DNA from: Gemmatimonadota bacterium
GTDB taxonomy: Bacteria > Gemmatimonadota > Gemmatimonadetes > Gemmatimonadales > GWC2-71-9
Assembly: GCA_039588295.1 (NCBI GenBank)
Contig: JBDHAB010000019.1
Location: 41,834-105,833 of the forward strand
Direction of reading: 5' to 3'
Length of the DNA: 64,000 nucleotides
Shown here: positions 7,021 through 49,638 of the stretch, in pieces
Layout: each line of letters starts with the position of its first letter
Numbering within the stretch: the first letter of the stretch is position 1
Made by a program: the position numbers and the translations under genes
The notes under the pieces: generated by a model
What the model was told of the DNA's origin: nothing
What the model saw: the letters and a program-made list of their open reading frames with translations, nothing else
The model's database searches: none

Positions 7021-7464
7021 GTGTCGTCGCATCAACCCAGGCTCTCCGCCCGCGCCCGGGCACAGCTCGGTGTGCTCCAGGAAGCGCGACATAAGCTGGA
7101 TCGCATGCGGGCGCTCGTGGAGCAGGCCAAGGCAAGAAAGTCCGGCGTCTTTCGACACGGCGGCGGGTCGTCGAGCTCCGCCGATCGGGTCGCCCAGACC
7201 CTGCTTGCGCAGGTTGGCCGCACGGCGCTCGACGTCGGCAAGCTCTTGGAGGAGCGCGGGTACAAGGGTCTCTCCGAGCAGCTGATTGAGTTCCAGCAGC
7301 TGGCGCGGCGCAAGGGGAACGTGCCGCTCTCCACCTACCACCGCATGCGTGAGATTGTGAACGCGGTCCACGGCAGCATCGATGTGGCGGAGCGAGAGAT
7401 CAACCAGGAACGCTGGTCCCAGGTCGACGTCGAGCGCCCGCCGGAAGGAAGCAGTGAGGGCTAG
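7021..7464 (+). CDS. Hypothetical alpha-helical protein
   Basis: Helical ORF; GTG start with GGAAGG upstream (start uncertain; frame open from 6883). Confidence 0.55.
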   Translation: MSSHQPRLSARARAQLGVLQEARHKLDRMRALVEQAKARKSGVFRHGGGSSSSADRVAQTLLAQVGRTALDVGKLLEERGYKGLSEQLIEFQQLARRKGNVPLSTYHRMREIVNAVHGSIDVAEREINQERWSQVDVERPPEGSSEG

Positions 7465-8135
7465 GGCTCCCCGCCTTGATCGGTGAGAACCGAGTTGGCT
7501 ACAAACCCCACCCGCTCACCGTCCACGAACACCGACCACCACCCAAGCCGCAGCATCGCCACCTCGACCCGCTCCCCGGGCTGGAGGACCCGTATTACAG
7601 CAGACGGCACGCGCGGTGCCCCACGGAGGTTCGCCCAGGTTGTGGCCCAGCGTGTCTGCGTGGGTGGCAGTTGGGGCGTTTGGGCGGCCGGCAGTTGGGC
7701 AGGGCGCAGTTCCGCCTCCATCAGTGGTGCGGACGGGAGTGACTCGACGGTCGGTTGCGGCAGCGGACGTACGACGGATTCGGGAGTTGCGCTGGGCGGC
7801 GGTGAGGGCTCGCCCAACGAGGGCGCCGGAGGCGTCGTGGTGCCTCGCTGCGCGGTGAGCGCCCAGAGGCCCCACGCCGCGAGCACGAGCGCGCCGATTC
7901 CGGCGGCAGACCATATGGCGAGGCGCAGGCGTCGGCGGAACTGCCGCGGGTACCCGCAGAACTTGCACTCCGCCGTCGATCGGGCCACGAGCTTCCCGCA
8001 ACGGCGGCACTCGACAACCTGCCCGTCCTCGCTCTCTGACATCGGATTCTGCAGGAGGAGGTGCGAGCACTTGGGGCAGACGGAGGCCACGCTCAGCACC
8101 GTCTGCCCGCACTTCGGACACTTGATCAATGCCAT
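7461..8135 (-). CDS. Double zinc-ribbon + TM + Pro-rich linker + SH3b-like protein
   Basis: CPKC..CPKC and CRRC..CKFC; one TM helix; C-terminal ANLRGAP...VLQPGERVEV...WW...GFV (SH3b-like). Confidence 0.8.
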   Translation of the reverse strand: MALIKCPKCGQTVLSVASVCPKCSHLLLQNPMSESEDGQVVECRRCGKLVARSTAECKFCGYPRQFRRRLRLAIWSAAGIGALVLAAWGLWALTAQRGTTTPPAPSLGEPSPPPSATPESVVRPLPQPTVESLPSAPLMEAELRPAQLPAAQTPQLPPTQTRWATTWANLRGAPRVPSAVIRVLQPGERVEVAMLRLGWWSVFVDGERVGFVANSVLTDQGGEP

Positions 8136-8174
8136 GGGGGGCGTCTTGCGGTCTGCAGGCCCGAGGTCCGGTGC

Positions 8175-8411
8175 CTACACCTCGCGGCGCCAGTCGCGGC
8201 GGAAGACCTGCACGTGGCCACAGTGGTCACAAGCCTCGACGTGCCAGAGCACATCCGGCTCAGCGCTTGTGACGCCCAGTTTCGCCAGTCCGCCGGAACC
8301 CGAGTAGGCATCGGTCTCCAGGCGGGTTGCATAGACGCCTTGCAGACATACCCCGCAGGGTCGTTCCGGCAGGGATCGCCGCTCACGAGCTGGTGTCTGG
8401 GTTGCCGTCAT
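8175..8411 (-). CDS. Small zinc-finger protein (CxxC...CxxC)
   Basis: GGAG RBS; CGVC and CDHC motifs; lies directly upstream of the zinc-ribbon gene on the same strand. Confidence 0.6.
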   Translation of the reverse strand: MTATQTPARERRSLPERPCGVCLQGVYATRLETDAYSGSGGLAKLGVTSAEPDVLWHVEACDHCGHVQVFRRDWRREV

Positions 8412-8573
8412 GGGTGTGCTTCTCCGTCTGGACGGGTGGAGGTTGCTACCGGAACCTTAACCCGTCGCGGGGTCCTGGGCAAAGTAATCTCGGGACCCCT
8501 TCATGCGACCTTCATGGAGGCTTCATGGCAGGTGATGAAGCTCGATGGGGTCCTACCCGCCGGAGGGAGCGGC

Positions 8574-9836
8574 ATGTCCGCGAATGAAGTCGAGCGATCG
8601 CTGACGCTGACGGCGAACCCCTGGCTCCGCACCGCCAGCTTCGTCACGGGCGCGGGCATGGTGGTCGCCTCGGTCGTGACCATGCAGCACTACTTCGCTG
8701 CCAACTTCCCATCATCCATCTTCGAGGGGTCGTTCTGCGATCTGAACGCCTTCTTCAACTGTGATAGCTCCGCCTACTCGGTGATCTCGGCCGTGGCCGG
8801 TGTCCCGCTGGGGTACTTCGGGTTGATGGTCGGGGGGCTCGTCATGCTCGGTGCCATGTTTCCATCTGCGGCATTCGAGCGCACCAACAAGACGATCGCT
8901 GTGGTGAACGGCATCGGCGTGGTGGCGCTCTTGGTCTATTCGGTCGCCGTGCTCAAGAGCCTCTGCCTTCTGTGCACCGGCTACTACGTGTTCGCGCTGC
9001 TGAGCCTTGCGCTCTTCTGGCGCTATGGCATTGATGGTGGCCGGCGTGGGCTTGCGCGACGGTTCCTGCGCCCGTCCACACCGCACCTCGTGGCGTTTGG
9101 CGTATGCCTCCTGGGCGGTGCATACGCGCTTGCGTTGTTCCACCGCGCCAAGGAACAGGCGCGATCGGGTGGGGTGGCTGCCAGGATCGTGGAGCAGTAC
9201 ATCAACCTGCCTCTGGTTCCCAACCCGAGCATCATCTCCCCGTTCATGACCGCCCGTGCTACGGAACGGTTCGAGGACGCTCCAATTCGCCTCATCGAGT
9301 ATGGTGACTTTCTTTGTTCGGACTGTCGCTACCTCAACGAACAGTTGGATCGCCTGAAAGAGGAGTTCCGGGGTCAGATCAACATCGCGTTTCAGTTCTT
9401 CCCGCTCGACGCCCAATGCAACCGCGTCGTGAACAAGGACAAGCATCCGGGCGCCTGCGACCTGTCGTACATGGCGGCATACGACCCCGCGAAGTTCGCC
9501 GCGATCCACGACGAGGTGTTCGCCAACATGACTGCCGCCAAGGATCCTGCCTGGCGCGCCGATCTGGCCCGCCGCTACGGGGTGGAGGCGGCCCTCGCGG
9601 ACTCCGCTACCCAAGCGTTGGTGCTGCGCATGATCCAAACGGGGGCGGAGTACGAACAGACTTCGGAGCGGTACGCATACGGAATCAGATCAACGCCAAC
9701 GTTGATCCTCAACAACCGCATGGTGATTGGCACGTTTCCCTACGAGCAGCTTCGCGCGATCTTCCAGGCACTCGTGAATGAGCACGAGCAGGGAGACGAA
9801 GGACGGTTTCTCGAGAACTGGGTGGACGACGGCTAG
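8574..9836 (+). CDS. VKOR-DsbA/thioredoxin fusion (disulfide bond formation)
   Basis: VKOR loop Cys pair FCDLNAFFNC, TM helices, CLLC active site; C-terminal thioredoxin fold with CSDC and cis-Pro STPT; GGAGGGAG RBS. Confidence 0.88.
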   Translation: MSANEVERSLTLTANPWLRTASFVTGAGMVVASVVTMQHYFAANFPSSIFEGSFCDLNAFFNCDSSAYSVISAVAGVPLGYFGLMVGGLVMLGAMFPSAAFERTNKTIAVVNGIGVVALLVYSVAVLKSLCLLCTGYYVFALLSLALFWRYGIDGGRRGLARRFLRPSTPHLVAFGVCLLGGAYALALFHRAKEQARSGGVAARIVEQYINLPLVPNPSIISPFMTARATERFEDAPIRLIEYGDFLCSDCRYLNEQLDRLKEEFRGQINIAFQFFPLDAQCNRVVNKDKHPGACDLSYMAAYDPAKFAAIHDEVFANMTAAKDPAWRADLARRYGVEAALADSATQALVLRMIQTGAEYEQTSERYAYGIRSTPTLILNNRMVIGTFPYEQLRAIFQALVNEHEQGDEGRFLENWVDDG

Positions 9837-9902: not shown

Positions 9903-11300
9903 TCATCGCCACACCTGTCCGAGGAATGCCTGAACCTCCGGTACCCCACCCTGGAGGATGAGGTATCCGTCATGCGGTTCACGCTCGGTGGTCTCGCCGG
10001 CGAGCGTGGTCGTCATGAGCTCCTGCACGGCGCGCGGATCGCCGGGGTGCACGCCGAGTGCCCAGCAGAGTTTGACGAACGCGACCTCGGGCAGCATGTT
10101 GGCGAGCGGAACGACCCCGAGCTCTAGGATCTCCCGCCCCGTCTCGTACACGTGCATTTGCACGAAGCCCCAGAGGGTCTGCAGCGTCATGTACATGTGC
10201 ACGCCGGCGTCACGTGCCCGCTCGAGTGCCGGGTAGATCTTGCGGTTCACGTGTCCGAGTCCGGTGCCGGCGATCACGATTCCCTGGTAGCCACGGTCGA
10301 CGAACGCGTCAATGATGTCCCCGTGCATTCCAGGGTAGTAGTACATGAGCGTCACACGCTCGTTGTACTTCGCGAAGATTGTGACGTCTCGATCCTCGCG
10401 TCGCGGAAGGAAGTCGTCCTTGAACGGTGTGATCGTGTCGCGATCGACCATTGCGAGGGGGATGTCACCCAACGTACGGAACGTGCTTCGGTAGGAGCTG
10501 TGCATCTTGCGGACACGGGTGCCGCGGTGCAGCAGGTTGTAGCGATCGGACGTCGGGCCGAACATGCAGACCATGACCTCGGCAATCGGCCCGTGCGCTG
10601 CCGTCCATGTGGCGTTGATGAGGTTCTGCGCCGCGTCGGATGACGGTCGATCGGAGGATCGTTGGCTCCCCACCAGGACGACCGGCACCGGTGGCCGCTG
10701 AACCATGAAGCTCAGTGCGGCTGCTGTGTGATGCATGGTATCGGTGCCATGGCCGATCACGACTCCGTCGTATCCGTCGGCAATCGCATCACCGATCTTC
10801 TCCGCCAACACCAAATACTGCTCCGGGCCCATGTTCTCCGAGAAGACACCGAACAACTTCTCGGTCTCGAGATTGCAGATGTCGGCCAACTCCGGCACCG
10901 ACCCGTAGAGCTCTCCGGGGCTGAAGGCGGGGATCACCGCACCGGTGCGATAGTCGAGCCGTGACGCGATCGTGCCCCCGGTCCCAAATAGCTTCACGCG
11001 GGGATTGGCAGGGTCGACCGGAAACGCCTTCTCTGGAATCCTGTAATGCGCCTCCCGATACCCGACCTTCTCGATCTCGAGCACTGTGTCGTGACGGATA
11101 CCGACGTTGTACCCGCTCCCCAGCTTGAGCACCAAGTGTAGGTCATCGCTCGTTTCCGAGCGTGGCAGCAACAGCCCCTCGAAGTCACCGCGGGTCGTTC
11201 GTGCCACGACCTCGCACCACACGGTGATTCCGGAGCGTGCCATCAGGTCGCGCGTCGGGCCGCGATAGCCGCGGTAGGGATCGCTCTGCTGGTCGCTCAT
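9903..11300 (-). CDS. gatD: Glu-tRNA(Gln) amidotransferase subunit D (archaeal-type)
   Basis: GatD N-terminal domain (EGLLLPR..LVLKLGSGYNVGI) plus asparaginase core GTGGTIASRLDYRTGAV, HGTDTM, VGSQRSSDRPSSDA, GTRVRKMH; start overlaps the gatE stop (ATGA). Confidence 0.92.
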   Translation of the reverse strand: MSDQQSDPYRGYRGPTRDLMARSGITVWCEVVARTTRGDFEGLLLPRSETSDDLHLVLKLGSGYNVGIRHDTVLEIEKVGYREAHYRIPEKAFPVDPANPRVKLFGTGGTIASRLDYRTGAVIPAFSPGELYGSVPELADICNLETEKLFGVFSENMGPEQYLVLAEKIGDAIADGYDGVVIGHGTDTMHHTAAALSFMVQRPPVPVVLVGSQRSSDRPSSDAAQNLINATWTAAHGPIAEVMVCMFGPTSDRYNLLHRGTRVRKMHSSYRSTFRTLGDIPLAMVDRDTITPFKDDFLPRREDRDVTIFAKYNERVTLMYYYPGMHGDIIDAFVDRGYQGIVIAGTGLGHVNRKIYPALERARDAGVHMYMTLQTLWGFVQMHVYETGREILELGVVPLANMLPEVAFVKLCWALGVHPGDPRAVQELMTTTLAGETTEREPHDGYLILQGGVPEVQAFLGQVWR

Positions 11301-13369
11301 GACGCATGCTCGGGGGCGGGTTCTCGCAACGCGGCAGCCAGACGCTGCCGAATTGCCTGAGGGTCGACTCGGCCAAGAAACGCTGGTACGACTTGGCCCA
11401 TGGCCCACCGCAGCCTCGCGTCGAGAGAGCGTCCGTTGAGCTCGAGCGCCGTTGCCGCAACCTGGGCAATCCGCTGGTCGAGTCGCGCACCGTCTTGAGG
11501 TGCGGGCTGATAGCCCACGACGATTTCGTCGGCGCCGACGTCGGGCTGCCTAGTGAGGTCGTCGAGCACCCGCGCCGCTGCCTCGGGGCGGAGCGCGCCG
11601 GCTTCCAGCGCGCGGGCAAGGGGACGAAGTCGCGCCGCGTCGGGCAGGGAGGCTGCGCCGCGGCGGGAGTGGTAGGGCCACCGCTTCTCGAGCGCAGTGG
11701 CGAGTCGCCGTGCGGCACTGCGTGACGCCGGCCGTACCTCGTCGTACACATCCGCCCACGGTGCGCTGGCAAGCCGGCGTGCGCCCCGTGCGTCGAGCCC
11801 AAGGTCACGGTACCGTGCCTCCCGTTCCCACGGTCGCTCCGGCAAACGCTCGCGAATCTCCGTCACGGCGGCGTCGGTGATCGGTAGGGGCGGCGTATCC
11901 GTGTCCGGGTACATTCGGTCCGGACCCGGCAGGATCCGCTCGAATCCCGTCGTGCTGTCCGCGTGGGCCTGGCGCGTTTCGGCAGGCACGCCCACCAACG
12001 CTTCGCCGGCGCGCAGCAGCACCTCGCGGGCGGCGGTGGCTGCGTCCGCGTCATCGCCCCACACCAGTACGAGCGCATCACCGGACTCGGCCCCGACTTC
12101 CCGACCGAGGCGCTGCCACACGAGCGGGTCCAGGCCGCCGCGGTCATTCCCGGAATGGGCCAAGAACGGGCGGTGTACCGGGCAGGCAATCACGCGCACG
12201 CGTTCTGCCAGCTCGTTGGCGAAGGTGGCCCCGGGTTGGGTCGGGTGGTCGAGGAGCTGGTTGAATCCCGGGAGCCGCACGACACAGATGCGATGTCCGC
12301 GGCCGAGCGCCTCGAGGATAGGCCGAGCCGTACACGCACGGAGCAATGAGGCGGCGTCCCCAACCAAGTGCGACACCTCCCAGGGCCTTCCGGTGGATGG
12401 AAGCGCCAGCATCGTCGGTTCGACACCACGCCGGTCGAGCGCGTGCTTGATCCGGAGCAAGTTGAGTTGGCGAAACGCCTCGACGTGGACCAAACGTGGC
12501 AGCCCGCGATGGTGATGTACACCTTTGATCTCGACCCGCCGGCCACCGGCGATCGAGACGTTCACGTCCTGGCGGGCTGCGCCAGGCCCCCGTCGCACTT
12601 TGCCCGTGGCCTGCGCCACTCGTGCCAGGAGCCGTGCACCGGCCTGCAGCTCGAGCGGGGTCAGGAACTCTGGTTCCGTGACTGTCTCGGTGAGCGGCAT
12701 GCCGAGGCGATCGGTGCGGAAGGTGATGCGATGACCGATGTCGGAGACTTCGCGACAGGAGTCCTCCTCGAGCGACAGCTGCCTGATGCTGAGGTCCCGA
12801 TCCACACCGAGCTCCGGGGCTCGGAACGGAATCCGCCCGGTCAGACCCACCATGGCCGTTCGCTGGAAGCCGGTCGGGATCGACCCGTCGAGATACTGCT
12901 TGCGCATCACGTGGAGTTCCGAAACCAAGTTGAGATTGAGGAGCTGGGCGACCTCGAGGGCGATACGCACCGCCTCCCCGTCGATCTCAAACGGCGGGGT
13001 ATCGTCCATTTCGTAGGTGCAGACCGATCCGCGCTCGAGGAGGTAGACAATCTCCTTGCGTGTCTTGAACTCCATCAGCGCCGTCCCGTCGTACTCCCCC
13101 AACTCGCTCAACGTCGGTCGCATGTGTCGCAGCACTTCACCGTCAACACGCGTGACCCGATGACCGGGTGGACAGCGGCAGAACAGCTTCGATTTGGTGT
13201 GGAGCTGTTGATGCACCTCGAGGCCACCCATGAAGCCCAGCACCTGGTAGTCCTCGTGGCGCAGTTCCCCGTATGCCCGATCGGGAAAGTCGAGCACGGG
13301 ATCATGCCGCGGATTGACGTCCCCGGGGGGGCGGACGCCGTGGTTGGGTGCCCCGTTAGGAGGCGTCAA
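11297..13369 (-). CDS. gatE: Glu-tRNA(Gln) amidotransferase subunit E (archaeal-type)
   Basis: GLEVHQQL..KLFCRC, LRHMRPTLSELGEYD, MRKQYLDGSIPTGFQRTAMV, LEEDSCR, DRLGMPL, RQDVNVSI..GRRVEIKGV, AspRS-like insertion, GVPAETR, PGPDRMYPDTDTP; start uncertain. Confidence 0.92.
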   Translation of the reverse strand: MTPPNGAPNHGVRPPGDVNPRHDPVLDFPDRAYGELRHEDYQVLGFMGGLEVHQQLHTKSKLFCRCPPGHRVTRVDGEVLRHMRPTLSELGEYDGTALMEFKTRKEIVYLLERGSVCTYEMDDTPPFEIDGEAVRIALEVAQLLNLNLVSELHVMRKQYLDGSIPTGFQRTAMVGLTGRIPFRAPELGVDRDLSIRQLSLEEDSCREVSDIGHRITFRTDRLGMPLTETVTEPEFLTPLELQAGARLLARVAQATGKVRRGPGAARQDVNVSIAGGRRVEIKGVHHHRGLPRLVHVEAFRQLNLLRIKHALDRRGVEPTMLALPSTGRPWEVSHLVGDAASLLRACTARPILEALGRGHRICVVRLPGFNQLLDHPTQPGATFANELAERVRVIACPVHRPFLAHSGNDRGGLDPLVWQRLGREVGAESGDALVLVWGDDADAATAAREVLLRAGEALVGVPAETRQAHADSTTGFERILPGPDRMYPDTDTPPLPITDAAVTEIRERLPERPWEREARYRDLGLDARGARRLASAPWADVYDEVRPASRSAARRLATALEKRWPYHSRRGAASLPDAARLRPLARALEAGALRPEAAARVLDDLTRQPDVGADEIVVGYQPAPQDGARLDQRIAQVAATALELNGRSLDARLRWAMGQVVPAFLGRVDPQAIRQRLAAALREPAPEHAS

Positions 13370-13642
13370 TGGTCTCGTCCATTCGTACGACCATGCGCGC
13401 TGCGCCCGTGAGGCGATCCGACCGAGGTTCCGTACGGCACGCCTGAAGATACACGGGGAAGGGAGCGACGGTATCGGTACTTGCTCTGTGTCGGTGCGTC
13501 GGTTTGTGGCTCAGCGCACAGCGCTCGGTGGTGCGGAGTGGCGCTATTGTGTCCCGGAGTGAGCGATGCGACCCCAGCGGCAGGGGTGCGGAACTCCACG
13601 GTTGCGAATAGCTTTGTGTTCTCCGACGAAGGACCCACGAGG

Positions 13643-14326
13643 ATGGCCAAAGGCAAACCACCCCAGAACCGACATGATGATTTGATGGCGGCGGAGGTCG
13701 ACAAGCTTCTGAAGAAGCTGCCTCATGCCGACCCCTCCCTGTCGGGGGAGCGCGTGGCGCAGCCCGAGCCAGGCGCTGCGCCAGGTAGGCCTCCGGTGTC
13801 TGGTCACCGCCGTGAGATCCAGGGAGGTGCGCCGAGGGTACCGCGGCCGCGCACACCTGAAGAGGAACGCCGAGCGAATCTCGGTGTCTGGGGCCTCGTG
13901 GCGCTCGGGGTCGTGCTGGGGGTAGCGTTGACCCAGTGGCCGTACAACGCGGCGTGCGGTCTTGCGTTGCTGTGGTATGTGGGGGCCGTCGCCACCATGC
14001 TCGTCGTCGGTGGGTGGTGCGCTTTGTCATCGTGGGACCAGCGGCTTGGGGTCGCGCACGTTCTGTCCCTCATACTCGTGTTCTGGGGAATCGTGCTGTC
14101 CGCTGAGGTGATTCTCCCTCGCATCGGGTATTCCGTCGACAAAGCGACCTGGCGTTGTCGGGTGGCTGAGCCCGCACGTCCGTCAGCGACACCGGTCCCG
14201 GTCGTTCCGCCGTTGCCCGCTCCCGCGCCGGCCGATCTGGAGGTCGATTCGACCGTCTCGACCGAACAGCCATCGCAGCCGGGCACCGACTCCATCGTAG
14301 CTGAGCCGGGCGATTCGATAGGATAG
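13643..14326 (+). CDS. Hypothetical membrane protein (3 TM helices, Pro-rich termini)
   Basis: ATG 13643; three hydrophobic segments. Confidence 0.7.
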   Translation: MAKGKPPQNRHDDLMAAEVDKLLKKLPHADPSLSGERVAQPEPGAAPGRPPVSGHRREIQGGAPRVPRPRTPEEERRANLGVWGLVALGVVLGVALTQWPYNAACGLALLWYVGAVATMLVVGGWCALSSWDQRLGVAHVLSLILVFWGIVLSAEVILPRIGYSVDKATWRCRVAEPARPSATPVPVVPPLPAPAPADLEVDSTVSTEQPSQPGTDSIVAEPGDSIG

Positions 14327-14377: not shown

Positions 14378-16153
14378 CTAGTGCTCCCGGACCTTCTGAA
14401 TGAGCGCCAGGGGGTGGATGGGTTTGCGGAGGATGGATTGGATCCGCAGATCCGCCACTTCCTCGGCGACGCTCACGGGCTCGCCGCTCGTCACCAACAC
14501 GATACCGGTGTCCGAAGCGTATTGCCGTACTTGCTCCATCGTGCTCCGCAGCGTGTCTCCAAGTTGATCGGCGTCGAACACCGCCGCCGCGATGGTGTTG
14601 CCGTGCACCCGGAGGAGGTCGACGGCGGCCTGAACGGTATCTGCGGACAAGACCTTGAGCCCGGCCGCCGCAAGCCCGCCGCGCGTTTCCGCCAGATCGG
14701 ATCCTCCGTCGGCCAACACCACGGTGCCCTCCAGCTGGACCTCGGGTTCACCTGCCACCGATTCCCGCTCGTTGGGCAAGTTCAAGGGGCGGACAATGCA
14801 CTGGTAGCCACGGATCGACCCGTCGGTACTTGCGCGGCGAGTCGCTGAGAGCAGCGCCTGAAACGTCGCTCCACTTTGGGTGGTGAGTTCGACTTCGAGA
14901 TCGCCGACGGCGCCGATCGTGTTCATCTGAACCTGGAATCGGCGAATATCGACTTGCCGCGCGAACAGCCTCCGTGCGTCGAGGCCGACGAGTTCGTCCC
15001 GTTTGTATCCGAAGAGCTCGACAGCCGCGGCGTTGACCGCCTCGATCTCACCGTCACGAGCCGTGAGGTAGATCGCGTCCCAGCACTGTTCGAACAGACT
15101 CTGGTATTGTTCCTCGCTCTGGTGTACGGATTCCTCGAAGGCTCGGCGTGCCTTGACGTCGCGCGCCACGGCGAGGACGAACTCCTCGGAACCGATCCTG
15201 TGGTGCGCGACGGCGATCTCCACCGGAAAGCTGCTTCCGTCCCGCCGTCGATGCTCGCCTTGCAGCATGAGCGGCCGCCGGGTGTCACGCGTGTCGGTGA
15301 ACTCCAGCTCGGCCTCCACCGGGGGCTGCACGGGAAACTCGAGTTGGAGCTCGTGGAGACGGTGTCCGATCACCTCTTCCCGGGCGCGGCCGAGCCAGCG
15401 GGCCGCCGTTTCGTTGACATCGATGACTTCTTCGGTGCGGGGATCTGTAACGAAGATTGCGTCGCCCGCATGATCCATCAGGGTGCGAAACCGTCGCCAC
15501 AGCTTCTCGCGTTCCGCGCGGCTGCGCGTTTCCTCCTGAATGGTCGCGTTTGCCCGATCGAGGTCGGCGGTGCGCTCCTCGAGCGAGCGCTGCAGGTCGC
15601 GACAAGCTCCCTCGAGCCGCTGGACGGCGCGCACATACTGTGTGATGTCGTGCGCGACCAGGGTCGCGGACACCACCCGGCCGTCGCGGATGTTCGGCGT
15701 GATGCGGCAGTCGTACCACGCGTCGGGATCGTGATTCTGTAGACCGGCCAGCTCGTGGTGCTGCGATAGGCCGGTCTCGAACGCCTGTGCTAGCGATTCA
15801 GCCACGCCTTCGTGCTGATTCGGTGGAATCCAGTCGAAGATGCTTGACCCAATGAGCTCGTCTTCAGACCGATCGCCGAGCGCGCAATTGGCGAATAGGA
15901 TCTCGCCGGTCTGCCGCACGATGAACACTGGATCGCGCGCGTCCGCCCGCGTGGCCGACGCCTCGAGCGGCGGGGGTGCGGGGCTGAACGCACTGTCCCG
16001 GATGCCACCGATCCGAGCGGGGGGCTTCAGCGATTCATCGCTCCCGCTTGGTTCGGAGCTCGTCTTTGTCTGACCCAGCAATGGGTAGCGTTCAGTCATC
16101 AGTCTCACCGAAAAGGGCCGGCTCGCCCGCGACTCGCTGTCGCGCTCCGTCAT
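14378..16153 (-). CDS. Multi-PAS sensor with C-terminal receiver domain and no kinase core
   Basis: Three PAS/PAC repeats (ILFAN..AHDIT; IDVNE..ARDV; EAVN..IVRP); coiled coil LEERTADL; REC motifs VVLAD, AVFD, LVTS, LRKP. Confidence 0.82.
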   Translation of the reverse strand: MTERDSESRASRPFSVRLMTERYPLLGQTKTSSEPSGSDESLKPPARIGGIRDSAFSPAPPPLEASATRADARDPVFIVRQTGEILFANCALGDRSEDELIGSSIFDWIPPNQHEGVAESLAQAFETGLSQHHELAGLQNHDPDAWYDCRITPNIRDGRVVSATLVAHDITQYVRAVQRLEGACRDLQRSLEERTADLDRANATIQEETRSRAEREKLWRRFRTLMDHAGDAIFVTDPRTEEVIDVNETAARWLGRAREEVIGHRLHELQLEFPVQPPVEAELEFTDTRDTRRPLMLQGEHRRRDGSSFPVEIAVAHHRIGSEEFVLAVARDVKARRAFEESVHQSEEQYQSLFEQCWDAIYLTARDGEIEAVNAAAVELFGYKRDELVGLDARRLFARQVDIRRFQVQMNTIGAVGDLEVELTTQSGATFQALLSATRRASTDGSIRGYQCIVRPLNLPNERESVAGEPEVQLEGTVVLADGGSDLAETRGGLAAAGLKVLSADTVQAAVDLLRVHGNTIAAAVFDADQLGDTLRSTMEQVRQYASDTGIVLVTSGEPVSVAEEVADLRIQSILRKPIHPLALIQKVREH

Positions 16154-47089: not shown

Positions 47090-47689
47090 TTGTCACTAGT
47101 CAACTTCACGAACCGTGAGATCACCTGCAAGATCGTCTACTACGGGCCGGGCCGCTCGGGAAAGACGACGAATCTGCAGTACATTTACGGTCGCGTGCCC
47201 GACGGCCGCCGAGGCAGAATGGTATCGCTCGCGACGGAGACCGAGCGTACGCTGTTCTTCGATTTCCTCCCGCTCGAGCTCGGAAGCATCTCGGGGTTCA
47301 CGACGCGGTTTCACCTCTATACAGTGCCGGGACAGGTGTACTACAACTCGACCCGCAAGCTGGTGCTGCAGGGCGCCGACGGCGTCGTGTTCGTGGCTGA
47401 CAGTCAGGCCCGGCAGCTCGATGACAACATCGACAGCTTGCAGAACCTCCAGGCCAACCTGATCGAGTTGGATATCGAGGTGCGCTCGTTGCCGCTCGTG
47501 TTTCAATACAACAAGCAAGACCTGCCCGAGGATCTCATCCTGACGCACACGGAGCTGGATGACGCGGTCAACTTCTGGGGCGTCCCGAGCTTCACGTCAG
47601 ACGCGTTGCGTGGGGTTGGAGTGTTCGAAACCTTGAAGGCCGTATCCGAGATGGTCCTGCGCAGATTGAGCCGGGAGGCTCCCGAGTGA
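47090..47689 (+). CDS. mglA: MglA small Ras-like GTPase
   Basis: KIVYYGPGRSGKTTNL, ERTLFFDFLP, YTVPGQVYY, GADGVVFVADSQ, NKQDL; TTG start. Confidence 0.95.
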   Translation: MSLVNFTNREITCKIVYYGPGRSGKTTNLQYIYGRVPDGRRGRMVSLATETERTLFFDFLPLELGSISGFTTRFHLYTVPGQVYYNSTRKLVLQGADGVVFVADSQARQLDDNIDSLQNLQANLIELDIEVRSLPLVFQYNKQDLPEDLILTHTELDDAVNFWGVPSFTSDALRGVGVFETLKAVSEMVLRRLSREAPE

Positions 47690-49638
47690 ACGAAGAACTC
47701 AACCCGCGGTTCACGTTCGACGCCTTCGTGGTCGGCGCCGCCAATCGGCTCGCGGTGACCGCTACCCGAACCGTCGCCGAGTCGCCGGGGACGGCGTACA
47801 ACCCGCTCTTCATCTACGGTGAGAGCGGCTTGGGCAAGACGCACCTGCTCATGGCCATTGGCCACTTGTCCAAAGAGCTCGCACCGGGCCTGGACGTGGA
47901 GTATGTGACGCTGGACGAGTTTGTGGAGCTCTATCAAGCGGCGGTTGGCGCGGGGCAGAGCGAGGCTCTGCGGGGGCGGCTCGGCCGGATCGACGTGCTT
48001 CTCGTCGATGACGTGCATTTCCTCACGCACCGCCGCGAGATGCAGGCTGAACTGCTGCGGGTCGTGGAGCAGCTGCAGGGCGGAAACCGTCAGGTCGTGC
48101 TGACCAGCGATCGTCCCCCAGCAGAGATCCAGGAACTCGACACCAGGCTGTTGACCCGGTTCGACGGCGGTTTGGTGGTGGACATCGACACCCCCGACTA
48201 CGAGACCCGCCTTGCGATCCTCAAGCGTCGAGCGGCCGACCGCGGAGCACAATTCGCTTCAGGGGTGCTCGACGTGGTGGCCCAGGTCGAGGTCAACAAC
48301 GTCCGCGAGCTGTTGGGTCTCCTGAACCGCCTCGTGGCGTACCAGGCCGTCAGTGAGACCCCACTCACACCGGATGCCGCCCATCAACTGCTTTCGGGTG
48401 AGGTGCCGCAGCGTCCCAGCGTCACCGGCGTGCCCGACGCAGCCGTTCGAGCGGCAGACGAATTCGCAGAGTTCCTCTCTGGTATCAGCCACACCGTCCA
48501 GGAGCAGATCGACGCGTGGCGCACGCGGGTAGGCGACGGCATCAAACGGTGGGGGAGTGAGGGGTACCGTACGGCGCGACTGGAACAGCTCCTGAAGCAA
48601 GATGTGCCCACGGGGGTCGATCGCGTGATCAAGGCCTATGAACAGGATGTCGACCACTTGAAGGCCTTCCAGCGTGCGATGGCGCGGGTCGACCCCCACC
48701 GGGTGAGTGATCCAGTATTCTACGACCCCGATCGACTGGAGGAGGCCGACGCGCTCGTGCAGGCGGCGCTGCGCGAAGGTCGCCCGCCGCCGGGTCCTTC
48801 CTCCGCCTGGACCATGGAAACGCTCGTCGTGGGAGAGGCGAACAAGTTCGCGTTGAACGCGGCGAATGGTGTGATCGCGGCGCCGGGCGTGAGTTATAAC
48901 CCGATGGTGGTCGTGGGACCGCCCGGCGTTGGGAAGACCCATCTGCTGCACGCGATGGGCAACGCGCTTGCTGAGGATCCCGAGGCCCGCGTGGCGTGCC
49001 TGTCGGCCCAGCAGTTCGTCGACGAGCTCCTCGATGCGATCGATGGGGACCGTGTGGAATCGTGGCGGAAGCGCTATCGGTCCGCCACTGCGTTGCTGCT
49101 GGACGATGTGCATCTCCTCGCAGGCAAGGAGCGGTCGCAGGAGGAGTTGTTTCACCTCTACAATTCGTTCATCCAGGGCGAGCAGCAGCTCATGTTCACG
49201 TTGATACTGCCCCCCAAGGATGTGGAGGGTTTCGACGCGCGACTGGTGTCTCGGTTGGAAGGTGGCCTGCTGGCACAACTGGCTGCCCCCGATCGGGAGT
49301 TGCGGCGTGAGATTGCCCTGCGGAAGCTCGGAGGGAAATTCGGCGATGTGGAGGTACCGTTGGTGGACTATCTGGCGGATCGTCCGGCGGATTCGATCCG
49401 TGAGGTCCTCAATGTCGTTCAGCGCATCGTGCGAGCAGCGCAGGCGCAGGGGGCTGAGCCAACGGCCGCCTTCGCCAAGGCGTTGCTGGAAGGGGCGAGG
49501 CCCTCGGCGGCCCGAACGGCCGGAGCCGTTCGAACAAGCGGGATCATGATCTCGCCGATCGGGAGCATCCGCAGCCGGGAGAAGGTAGTGTGGGATTGGC
49601 CCGAGCCGGCGGACCGGGTCATTGAGGAGCTGGTGTGA
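47686..49638 (+). CDS. Tandem double DnaA/Hda-type AAA+ ATPase lacking the DNA-binding domain
   Basis: Two DnaA domain-III modules (YNPLFIYGESGLGKTHLL/VDDVHF/TRF and YNPMVVVGPPGVGKTHLL/LDDVHL/SRL); no domain I/II or domain IV. Confidence 0.88.
   Translation: MNEELNPRFTFDAFVVGAANRLAVTATRTVAESPGTAYNPLFIYGESGLGKTHLLMAIGHLSKELAPGLDVEYVTLDEFVELYQAAVGAGQSEALRGRLGRIDVLLVDDVHFLTHRREMQAELLRVVEQLQGGNRQVVLTSDRPPAEIQELDTRLLTRFDGGLVVDIDTPDYETRLAILKRRAADRGAQFASGVLDVVAQVEVNNVRELLGLLNRLVAYQAVSETPLTPDAAHQLLSGEVPQRPSVTGVPDAAVRAADEFAEFLSGISHTVQEQIDAWRTRVGDGIKRWGSEGYRTARLEQLLKQDVPTGVDRVIKAYEQDVDHLKAFQRAMARVDPHRVSDPVFYDPDRLEEADALVQAALREGRPPPGPSSAWTMETLVVGEANKFALNAANGVIAAPGVSYNPMVVVGPPGVGKTHLLHAMGNALAEDPEARVACLSAQQFVDELLDAIDGDRVESWRKRYRSATALLLDDVHLLAGKERSQEELFHLYNSFIQGEQQLMFTLILPPKDVEGFDARLVSRLEGGLLAQLAAPDRELRREIALRKLGGKFGDVEVPLVDYLADRPADSIREVLNVVQRIVRAAQAQGAEPTAAFAKALLEGARPSAARTAGAVRTSGIMISPIGSIRSREKVVWDWPEPADRVIEELV

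What the first reader, a model, noticed from the sequence alone, without database searches (positions are those of the whole stretch)
9903..13369. Archaeal-signature GatDE amidotransferase encoded in a bacterial chromosome
Seen: full-length gatE followed by gatD with an ATGA overlap. GatD keeps its specific N-terminal domain and catalytic Thr (GGT), Thr-Asp (GTDT) and Lys (RKMH). GatE keeps the His/Glu/Glu metal ligands and the AspRS-like insertion that separates it from GatB. Flanking genes are clearly bacterial (OmpA lipoprotein, dcw, lspA) and base composition looks like the rest of the window by eye. Established: GatDE is described as the archaea-specific Gln-tRNA pathway that reads the A1-U72 pair of tRNA-Gln, whereas bacteria use GatCAB (U1-A72) or GlnRS. 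Inference: an old, ameliorated interdomain transfer giving a non-canonical route to Gln-tRNA, or a repurposed amidotransferase.
Basis: partly seen in the sequence, partly recalled or inferred. Interest (0 to 1): 0.8.

Follow-up and report, generated by a model that had tools for sequence, protein, structure and literature searches.

The report
Bacterial GatDE replacing GatCAB beside GlnRS
This bacterium carries an intact copy of GatDE, a tRNA-linked amide-forming enzyme that reviews call archaea-only, has lost the usual bacterial enzyme GatCAB and already charges glutamine tRNA directly, so GatDE here likely makes asparagine on its tRNA rather than glutamine.

Summary
Observation confirmed. 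gatE (13369-11297) and gatD (11300-9903) are intact, overlap by ATGA, pass the archaeal TIGRFAM cut-offs and keep all catalytic residues. The host is a Gemmatimonadota genome; flanks are syntenic across its genus, so no chimera. The pair belongs to one bacterial clade spread over about 14 phylum labels; its nearest archaeal neighbours are Asgard sequences (root unresolved). GatCAB is cleanly deleted here. In Gemmatimonadota, E. coli-type AsnB or AsnA occurs in 16 of 26 genomes without any amidotransferase, but in 0 of 12 with GatDE only and 0 of 28 with GatCAB. Best reading (0.45): GatDE took over GatCAB's asparagine-making role. Rival (0.33): back-up repair of Glu-tRNA(Gln), favoured by glnS/glnA/gltX neighbours. 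Kin are not independent and nothing is biochemically shown. Databases already label these proteins; I found no paper; this scan found the same pair before (20 findings, at least 18 genomes). New variant of a known kind; interest 0.62.

The parts
11297..13369 (-). gatE, 690 aa: GatB/E catalytic cradle with H53/E201/E228, AspRS-like insertion (about 310-460), helical and tail domains; H285 stands where archaeal GatE has an almost invariant Gln (Q240 of 2D6F)
9903..11300 (-). gatD, 465 aa: GatD N-terminal domain plus type I asparaginase fold with T110, T186, D187, K265
11297..11300 (-). ATGA overlap of gatE stop and gatD start (translational coupling inferred)
13481..14326 (+). divergent upstream membrane hypothetical; conserved beside gatE in 7 of 8 other genomes of the genus (marks synteny, not part of the enzyme)
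14378..16153 (-). PAS-domain protein, conserved upstream flank in 6 of 8 other genomes of the genus
8061..9836 (+). convergent VKOR/thioredoxin gene downstream of gatD (near gatD in 2 other genomes of the genus)
7461..8135 (-). zinc-ribbon/SH3 protein, conserved downstream flank in 6 of 8 other genomes of the genus

Best explanation
The two genes encode an intact GatDE-family tRNA-dependent amidotransferase of a bacterial branch, in a genome that has lost GatCAB and has GlnRS, and the enzyme likely converts Asp-tRNA(Asn) to Asn-tRNA(Asn) as the cell's asparagine source. Inferred mechanism: the single AspRS mischarges tRNA(Asn) (U1-A72) with Asp; GatE phosphorylates the Asp with ATP/Mg; GatD releases ammonia from Gln, which a neighbouring glutamine synthetase supplies in several lineages; the ammonia passes through the tunnel and amidates the intermediate. 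GlnRS covers Gln-tRNA, so GlnRS plus GatDE together would replace both jobs of GatCAB, which would explain gatE-gatD-glnS clusters. Shown: genes, residues, purifying selection, gene inventory, co-occurrence. Inferred: substrate, a non-discriminating AspRS, expression, Asgard origin.
For: (1) G000 has no gatB; gatA-gatB sit between uvrD and a phospholipase-C-like gene in relative G001, and these two genes are 92 bp apart on one contig in G000, so the loss is real. (2) GlnRS is present and keeps the Gln-specific residues, including C229 (PMC3439900 passage), in 24 of 24 carriers aligned; GlnRS over cut-off in 46 of 50 carriers from many phyla and in 14 of 16 carriers against 139 of 285 non-carriers in a phylum sample. 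(3) In the host family, gatB is kept in 14 of 16 GlnRS+ non-carriers but in 3 of 16 carriers. (4) E. coli-type AsnB (NF006949 over cut-off) or AsnA in Gemmatimonadota: 16 of 26 GlnRS+ genomes without amidotransferase; 0 of 12 GatDE-only; 0 of 5 with both; 0 of 23 GatCAB-only. Outside the phylum 3 of 14 GatDE-only genomes. (5) tRNA-Asn keeps U1-A72 in 9 of 9 GatDE-only genomes where found (11 tried), against 5 of 8 genomes with AsnB and no amidotransferase (10 tried; 3 have G1-C72) (one-sided p 0.08). (6) Precedent: bacteria with GlnRS, AsnRS and GatCAB but no AsnA/AsnB use the amidotransferase for Asn (PMC4206432, Discussion read). (7) The archaeal Gln after the KGV motif is in 122 of 125 readable canonical archaeal rows and 19 of 19 Asgard-type metagenome rows, but 0 of 87 readable bacterial loci (89 examined), so tRNA contacts have likely changed. 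(8) One Cytophagia locus has aspS directly before gatE. (9) dN/dS roughly 0.1 for gatD and 0.2 for gatE against 8 relatives (dS near saturation).
Against: Neighbours point to glutamine: glnS within about 10 kb in 9 genomes, gltX in 4, a glutamine synthetase-family gene in 11 of 94 loci; asnS in none, aspS once. Characterised GatDE only amidates Glu-tRNA(Gln), rejects Asp-tRNA(Asn) by the first pair and D-loop, and its insertion is predicted to clash with ND-AspRS (PMC2330236, PMC2943598, PMC1635274 passages). 28 of 58 carriers also have gatB over cut-off. G000 has three AsnB-family proteins over the broad TIGR01536 cut-off, any of which might make Asn, and 10 of 26 genomes without amidotransferase also lack canonical AsnA/AsnB. 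The 11 family-level carriers form one clade in a GluRS tree, so those counts are one event; within the order the contrast is 0 of 10 against 2 of 6 (p 0.125). No control set for the 14 genomes outside the phylum. The AspRS anticodon-domain signature does not separate the groups.
Confidence: 0.45

Rival explanations
1. GatDE keeps its archaeal chemistry and is a back-up or proofreader for Gln-tRNA: a GluRS that is still non-discriminating makes Glu-tRNA(Gln), and GatDE amidates it (using Gln or Asn as donor) beside the direct GlnRS route, possibly docking on GlnRS, which shares its fold with archaeal GluRS.
For: gatE-gatD-glnS run-on clusters, with gltX divergent, in Gemmatimonadota; glnS beside gatE in a myxococcal and a deltaproteobacterial locus; two kinds of glutamine synthetase gene directly beside the pair. 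All catalytic residues, the insertion and the short first-pair loop are archaeal-like. The host GluRS has GlnRS-less (obligately non-discriminating) relatives as near outgroup. This is the only activity shown for the family.
Against: [quoted passage not shown] A competent Glu-amidotransferase should often occur without GlnRS; it rarely does (4 of 50; genomes of unknown completeness). 27 of 80 GlnRS+ relatives need no amidotransferase. It does not explain the AsnA/AsnB pattern. The GluRS anticodon residue does not separate groups.
Confidence: 0.33
2. GatDE has become dual-specific for U1-A72 tRNAs like bacterial GatCAB, or has another role in amide-nitrogen handling (for example a tRNA-gated asparaginase/glutaminase linked to glutamine synthetase).
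For: Both tRNA-Gln and tRNA-Asn have U1-A72; GatD is the only asparaginase-family hit in G000; glnA-family genes also flank a second, fast-evolving archaeal GatDE paralogue, and one archaeal contig has two tandem gatE-gatD pairs, so accessory copies exist in archaea too.
Against: A full GatCAB mimic should replace GatCAB in GlnRS-less genomes, which is seen at most in G008 and G354, both fragmented assemblies. No direct evidence for a non-translational role.
Confidence: 0.16
3. GatDE is the main, required route to Gln-tRNA in this genome.
For: No GatCAB in the genome.
Against: An intact GlnRS with Gln-specific residues is present; no A1-U72 tRNA-Gln.
Confidence: 0.05
4. Assembly or binning artefact, or a decaying recent transfer.
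For: All carriers seen are metagenome-assembled; this bin also holds a phage contig by earlier scan notes (not checked).
Against: One 105.8-kb contig with bacterial core genes; gatE in 9 of 9 genomes of the genus with conserved flanks; native composition; purifying selection; homologues on megabase contigs.
Confidence: 0.01

Closest known systems
Archaeal GatDE, Glu-tRNA(Gln) amidotransferase (M. thermautotrophicus PDB 2D6F; P. abyssi PDB 1ZQ1)
   Same: Both subunits, GatD N-domain, asparaginase catalytic set, GatE His/Glu/Glu, insertion domain, short loop in place of GatB's 3-10 turn, overall fold.
   Different: Bacterial host with GlnRS and U1-A72 tRNAs; order gatE then gatD; Asgard-type motifs; the Gln at 2D6F position 240 is lost in 87 of 87 readable bacterial copies; the tail Gly motif is kept in only 14 of 89; not the sole Gln-tRNA route.
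Asgard archaeal GatDE (Heimdallarchaeota-, Loki-, Thor-, Odin-labelled records; uncharacterised)
   Same: Shared motif variants in the cradle; gatE-gatD order in Loki-like contigs; nearest archaeal branch for GatE (Heimdall-labelled, SH-aLRT 92-100).
   Different: Asgard copies keep the Gln; Heimdall-like contigs have gatD divergent from gatE; GatD's sister is a Loki-like pair instead (support 92), so the exact donor is open.
Bacterial GatCAB used for tRNA-dependent Asn synthesis beside GlnRS and AsnRS (Bdellovibrio, Thermus, Deinococcus; PMC4206432)
   Same: Same genomic logic: GlnRS and AsnRS present, no canonical AsnA/AsnB, tRNA-Asn with U1-A72, one amidotransferase.
   Different: The amidotransferase is GatDE (asparaginase-type donor subunit, no GatC, insertion domain); activity on Asp-tRNA(Asn) is not shown.

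Membership tests
GatDE (protein family) | GatE above TIGR00134 cut-off and far below GatB models | tested here: met
   390.9 against 319.55; TIGR00133 107 against 314.8; PRK04028 449.3 is just under its 456
GatDE (protein family) | GatD above TIGR02153/PRK04183 with GatD_N domain | tested here: met
   483/324, 478/310, PF18195 47/25.7
GatDE (protein family) | GatE Mg ligands His15/Glu157/Glu184 and GatD Thr plus Thr-Asp-Lys | tested here: met
   H53/E201/E228; T110/T186/D187/K265; His motif in 88 and both Glu motifs in 89 of 89 bacterial GatE; all three motifs in 72 of 80 GatD by strict regex
GatDE (protein family) | AspRS-like insertion domain absent from GatB | tested here: met
   aligned through the insertion with 1ZQ1/2D6F; AspRS Foldseek hits; Pfam GAD not scored in this copy
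Archaeal Gln-tRNA pathway (function) | Substrate tRNA(Gln) with A1-U72 | tested here: not met
   both tRNA-Gln of G000 have U1-A72; also 4 tRNA-Gln from 3 of 5 other carriers searched
Archaeal Gln-tRNA pathway (function) | No GlnRS; archaeal-type ND-GluRS partner | tested here: not met
   GlnRS 723.7 bits (425.8); GluRS is bacterial type
Archaeal Gln-tRNA pathway (function) | [quoted passage not shown] | tested here: not met
   last Gly replaced in this copy; strict motif in 14 of 89 bacterial copies
Archaeal Gln-tRNA pathway (function) | Amidates Glu-tRNA(Gln), not Asp-tRNA(Asn) | not testable with these tools
   needs in vitro assay
Asp-AdT route to Asn (GatCAB-like role) | tRNA(Asn) with U1-A72 | tested here: met
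   9 of 9 GatDE-only genomes where found
Asp-AdT route to Asn (GatCAB-like role) | No free-Asn synthetase | tested here: inconclusive
   no AsnA, no E. coli-type AsnB, but three AsnB-family proteins over TIGR01536
Asp-AdT route to Asn (GatCAB-like role) | Non-discriminating AspRS | tested here: inconclusive
   the recalled His/Leu signature is Leu in nearly all groups, with or without amidotransferase; no paper for the signature found
GatCAB | GatB without insertion, amidase GatA, GatC | tested here: not met

The most novel reading that the evidence does not exclude
An Asgard-derived GatDE entered bacteria once, switched from Glu-tRNA(Gln) to Asp-tRNA(Asn), and now spreads across many phyla, at times in a gatE-gatD-glnS cassette that replaces both jobs of GatCAB. 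It would be the first GatDE that makes asparagine and a third bacterial route to Asn-tRNA.
Probability: 0.35. Interest if true: 0.8.

Novelty: new variant of a known kind. Interest (0 to 1): 0.62.

Why it matters
Reviews up to 2022 call GatDE archaea-only and explain this by co-evolution with archaeal tRNA(Gln) (PMC9499178, PMC2330236, PMC2811023 passages). A widespread, selected bacterial branch breaks that rule and gives a natural experiment on how amidotransferases read the first base pair and D-loop. It also changes annotation logic: the rule that GlnRS without gatCAB means no indirect pathway and a discriminating GluRS (PMC3927822 passages) would miss these genomes, and metabolic models would miscall their asparagine supply. 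The Asgard link adds a case of exchange of a translation enzyme between domains.

Tried and rejected
GlnRS as a hidden Glu-charging enzyme: rejected, residues canonical in 24 of 24 carriers and 5 of 5 non-carriers. AspRS and GluRS specificity signatures: uninformative (residue identities recalled). Rooting with GatB: branch too long; quick tree nests bacteria in Asgard, but the constrained archaea-only tree scored 24 log units higher (AU p 0.76); on 266 core columns GatB falls inside Asgard without support and archaeal monophyly has p 0.09; the p 0.024 for bacteria+Heimdall is a search artefact, since the free tree holds that very split. Two tree runs did not finish and one timed out. Mobile carriers: none in viral contigs or plasmids. 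No promoter, terminator or Rfam hit near the pair; no tRNA-Gln or tRNA-Asn gene in 60 loci. lspA not checked. Literature: nine searches listed no paper on bacterial GatDE; I saw listings and abstract starts, and passages of nine papers only; most subscription journals are not held, and Oshikane 2006 and Sheppard and Soll 2008 were not read; no supplements were opened.
Full report
1. The observation. The minus strand carries a 690-aa ORF (13369-11297) and a 465-aa ORF from the ATG at 11300 to 9903, joined by ATGA. They pass the archaeal models TIGR00134 (390.9, cut-off 319.55) and TIGR02153 (483.3, cut-off 324) and score far below GatB and AnsA cut-offs; PRK04028 is just missed (449.3 against 456). 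GatD has the GatD_N domain. GatE H53, E201, E228 align with H15, E157, E184 of 2D6F, the Mg ligands named in PMC2330236 (passages). GatD keeps T110, T186, D187, K265. The model (pLDDT 92) matches 1ZQ1 and 2D6F first, GatB second, and AspRS weakly through the insertion.

2. It is native and selected. The contig is 105.8 kb of a 4.5-Mb genome, 96% complete, 1.6% contaminated, with ftsH, tilS, ileS and dcw genes. The closest named homologues are Gemmatimonadota. GC3 and tetranucleotide use are native. All 9 genomes of the genus have a GatE-type hit and both flanks are conserved. Rough dN/dS against 8 relatives is about 0.1 for gatD and 0.2 for gatE, with dS near saturation.

3. Distribution. GatD is in 16 of 301 genomes of the phylum, in 5 of 12 families (the sample holds one unpublished genome, G133, as does; one search holds G021; they enter tallies only). 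A GTDB scan kept the best 80 of 597 confirmed stretches; all 80 are bacterial metagenome-assembled records with about 14 phylum labels, among them Ignavibacteriota, Bacteroidota, Planctomycetota, Myxococcota, Calditrichota, Eisenbacteria, Krumholzibacteriota and Fermentibacterota. The estimate of about 3700 stretches includes Asgard copies with the same motifs, so it is an upper bound. GatD follows gatE in 72 of the 80 as listed; one more is hidden by my overlap filter, five loci end at a contig edge and two stand alone. None was found in viral contigs or plasmids.

4. Origin. Bacterial GatE is one clade (support 99-100) in every tree, and so is GatD, with the same subclades (no canonical archaeal GatD in that tree), so the pair travels together. 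One record labelled Thermoplasmata and its twin sit at the base of the bacterial clade. The nearest archaeal branch for GatE is a Heimdallarchaeota-labelled group; under LG+C20+F+G4 that split has 99 and all Asgard-type plus bacterial rows against canonical archaea 100 (quick tree, unrooted in effect). Asgard and bacterial copies share cradle motif variants and Loki-like contigs share the gatE-gatD order. The best 120 hits of a Heimdall-like GatD carry Asgard and bacterial names, bar one Bathyarchaeia label. The root is not resolved: archaeal monophyly is not rejected (p 0.76; p 0.09). Transfer from Asgard is the simplest reading (inference from patchy bacterial and general archaeal occurrence); an old relic is not excluded, and PMC9499178 (passages) reports that GatDE is thought to date from LUCA.

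5. Gene inventory of G000. One PF02934 hit, the gatE itself. gatA-gatB lie between uvrD and a phospholipase-C-like gene in G001; in G000 these genes are 92 bp apart on one contig. GlnRS, bacterial GluRS, AsnRS, one AspRS and GlnA are present; AsnA is not. Four AsnB-like genes exist; three pass the broad TIGR01536 cut-off, none the E. coli-type NF006949. Both tRNA-Gln and tRNA-Asn begin with U1-A72.

6. What the neighbours in other genomes say. GlnRS over cut-off in 46 of 50 carriers (50 of the 80 loci were submitted); 14 of 16 carriers against 139 of 285 non-carriers in the phylum sample, and 9 of 11 against 17 of 115 in the family (one of the 17, G257, has gatE). These GlnRSs keep C229 (PMC3439900 passage) and the recalled R30, Y211, F233, Q255 in 24 of 24. 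gatB is in 28 of 58 carriers; in the family in 3 of 16 carriers against 14 of 16 GlnRS+ non-carriers. 27 of 80 GlnRS+ genomes have neither enzyme. E. coli-type AsnB or AsnA: 16 of 26 of those (26 of the 27 submitted), 0 of 12 GatDE-only, 0 of 5 with both, 0 of 17 GatCAB+GlnRS, 0 of 6 GatCAB without GlnRS; 3 of 14 GatDE-only genomes of other phyla. tRNA-Asn has U1-A72 in 9 of 9 GatDE-only genomes against 5 of 8 with AsnB and no amidotransferase. The nominal Fisher values overstate: the 11 family carriers are one clade on a GluRS tree, leaving about three independent GatDE-only lineages in the phylum, and within the order the contrast is 0 of 10 against 2 of 6. Against this Asn signal stands the gene context: glnS near the pair in 9 genomes (abutting gatD in several), gltX in 4, glutamine synthetase-family genes of two kinds in 11 of 94 loci, aspS once, asnS never.

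7. Sequence changes. The Gln at 2D6F position 240 is in 122 of 125 readable canonical archaeal rows and 19 of 19 Asgard-type metagenome rows, and in 0 of 87 readable bacterial loci; here it is H285 (the mixed 'asgard-type' tally of that call also holds bacterial rows and is not used). That this residue touches the acceptor stem is recalled, not found in the papers I could open. The short loop that stands for GatB's 3-10 turn is archaeal-like (PMC2811023 passages). The tail Gly motif is kept in 14 of 89.

8. Mechanism. Chemistry follows the family (PMC2330236 passages): GatE phosphorylates the acid on the tRNA, GatD frees ammonia from Gln or Asn, a tunnel joins them. Which tRNA is the open step. 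I put 0.45 on Asp-tRNA(Asn): GatDE stands where GatCAB stood, in genomes where GlnRS leaves GatCAB mainly its Asn role (precedent PMC4206432, Discussion), and GlnRS plus GatDE would then make a full replacement cassette, which also accounts for the glnS link. I put 0.33 on repair of Glu-tRNA(Gln), 0.16 on dual or other roles, 0.05 on a required Gln route. My reading before seeing earlier scan notes was 55% Gln and 15% Asn; note e1-9948194 gave the Asn lead, which I then tested.

9. Known or new. The proteins are family members; the functional setting fails two defining features of the archaeal pathway (A1-U72 tRNA, no GlnRS). NCBI and JGI already label such proteins GatE/GatD in bacteria. Nine literature searches listed no paper describing them, and the passages I read of PMC2811023, PMC2943598, PMC2330236, PMC1635274 and PMC9499178 call GatDE archaea-specific; PMC9976931 and PMC3927822 passages do not mention bacterial GatDE. 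The library lacks most subscription journals. This scan has 20 earlier findings in at least 18 genomes and one on this same stretch. Verdict: real, a new variant of a known kind, interest 0.62.

Noticed in passing
G000:C38 about 26690 (L006 1279-2898, - strand): The only aspS has a frameshift with a short gap near its C-terminus; relatives G001, G003, G004 are intact, so probably an assembly error.
   Followed up: partly
L265 7977-14504: An archaeal, Loki-like contig has two complete gatE-gatD pairs in tandem, both over cut-off; the second belongs to a fast-evolving paralogue clade that lacks the tail motif.
   Followed up: partly
L330 5327-11323 (also L298, L323, L325, L328, L331, L335, L336, L340): Archaeal contigs with a glnA-family gene, often tRNA-Ala(GGC), then gatE-gatD of that second paralogue clade.
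   Followed up: partly
L016 5625-6935, L025 11636-12919, L052 10718-11905: A divergent glutamine synthetase-family gene (TIGR00653 133-155 bits, far under cut-off) directly after gatD in several Gemmatimonadota and an Eisenbacteria genome.
   Followed up: partly
L015 5' of gltX (11778-11867); G000:C21 12689-12780: In G032 the gatE-gatD-glnS cluster sits beside tRNA-Ser(GCT) and gltX; in G000 the same tRNA precedes gltX without the cluster, so the gltX link may reflect an insertion site.
   Followed up: partly
L003 1201-2532: The host GluRS is a short form (443 aa) shared by the carrier clade and three relatives; all 14 genomes with it in my sample have an amidotransferase.
   Followed up: partly
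L231, L233, L236: Bacterial tRNA-Asn with G1-C72 in three Gemmatimonadota that have E. coli-type AsnB and no amidotransferase.
   Followed up: yes
P0099 (969 aa): A database protein carrying GatE and GatD domains in one chain, a possible fusion or read-through.
   Followed up: no
window 47563-49635: A 691-aa frame scoring as DnaA (TIGR00362 464.6) with two matched stretches, between TPR proteins before the dcw cluster.
   Followed up: no
G000:C14 47647-63751: A dense array of 19 tRNA genes on a contig of lower GC (0.60), without tRNA-Gln or tRNA-Asn; earlier scan notes call such contigs phage.
   Followed up: no
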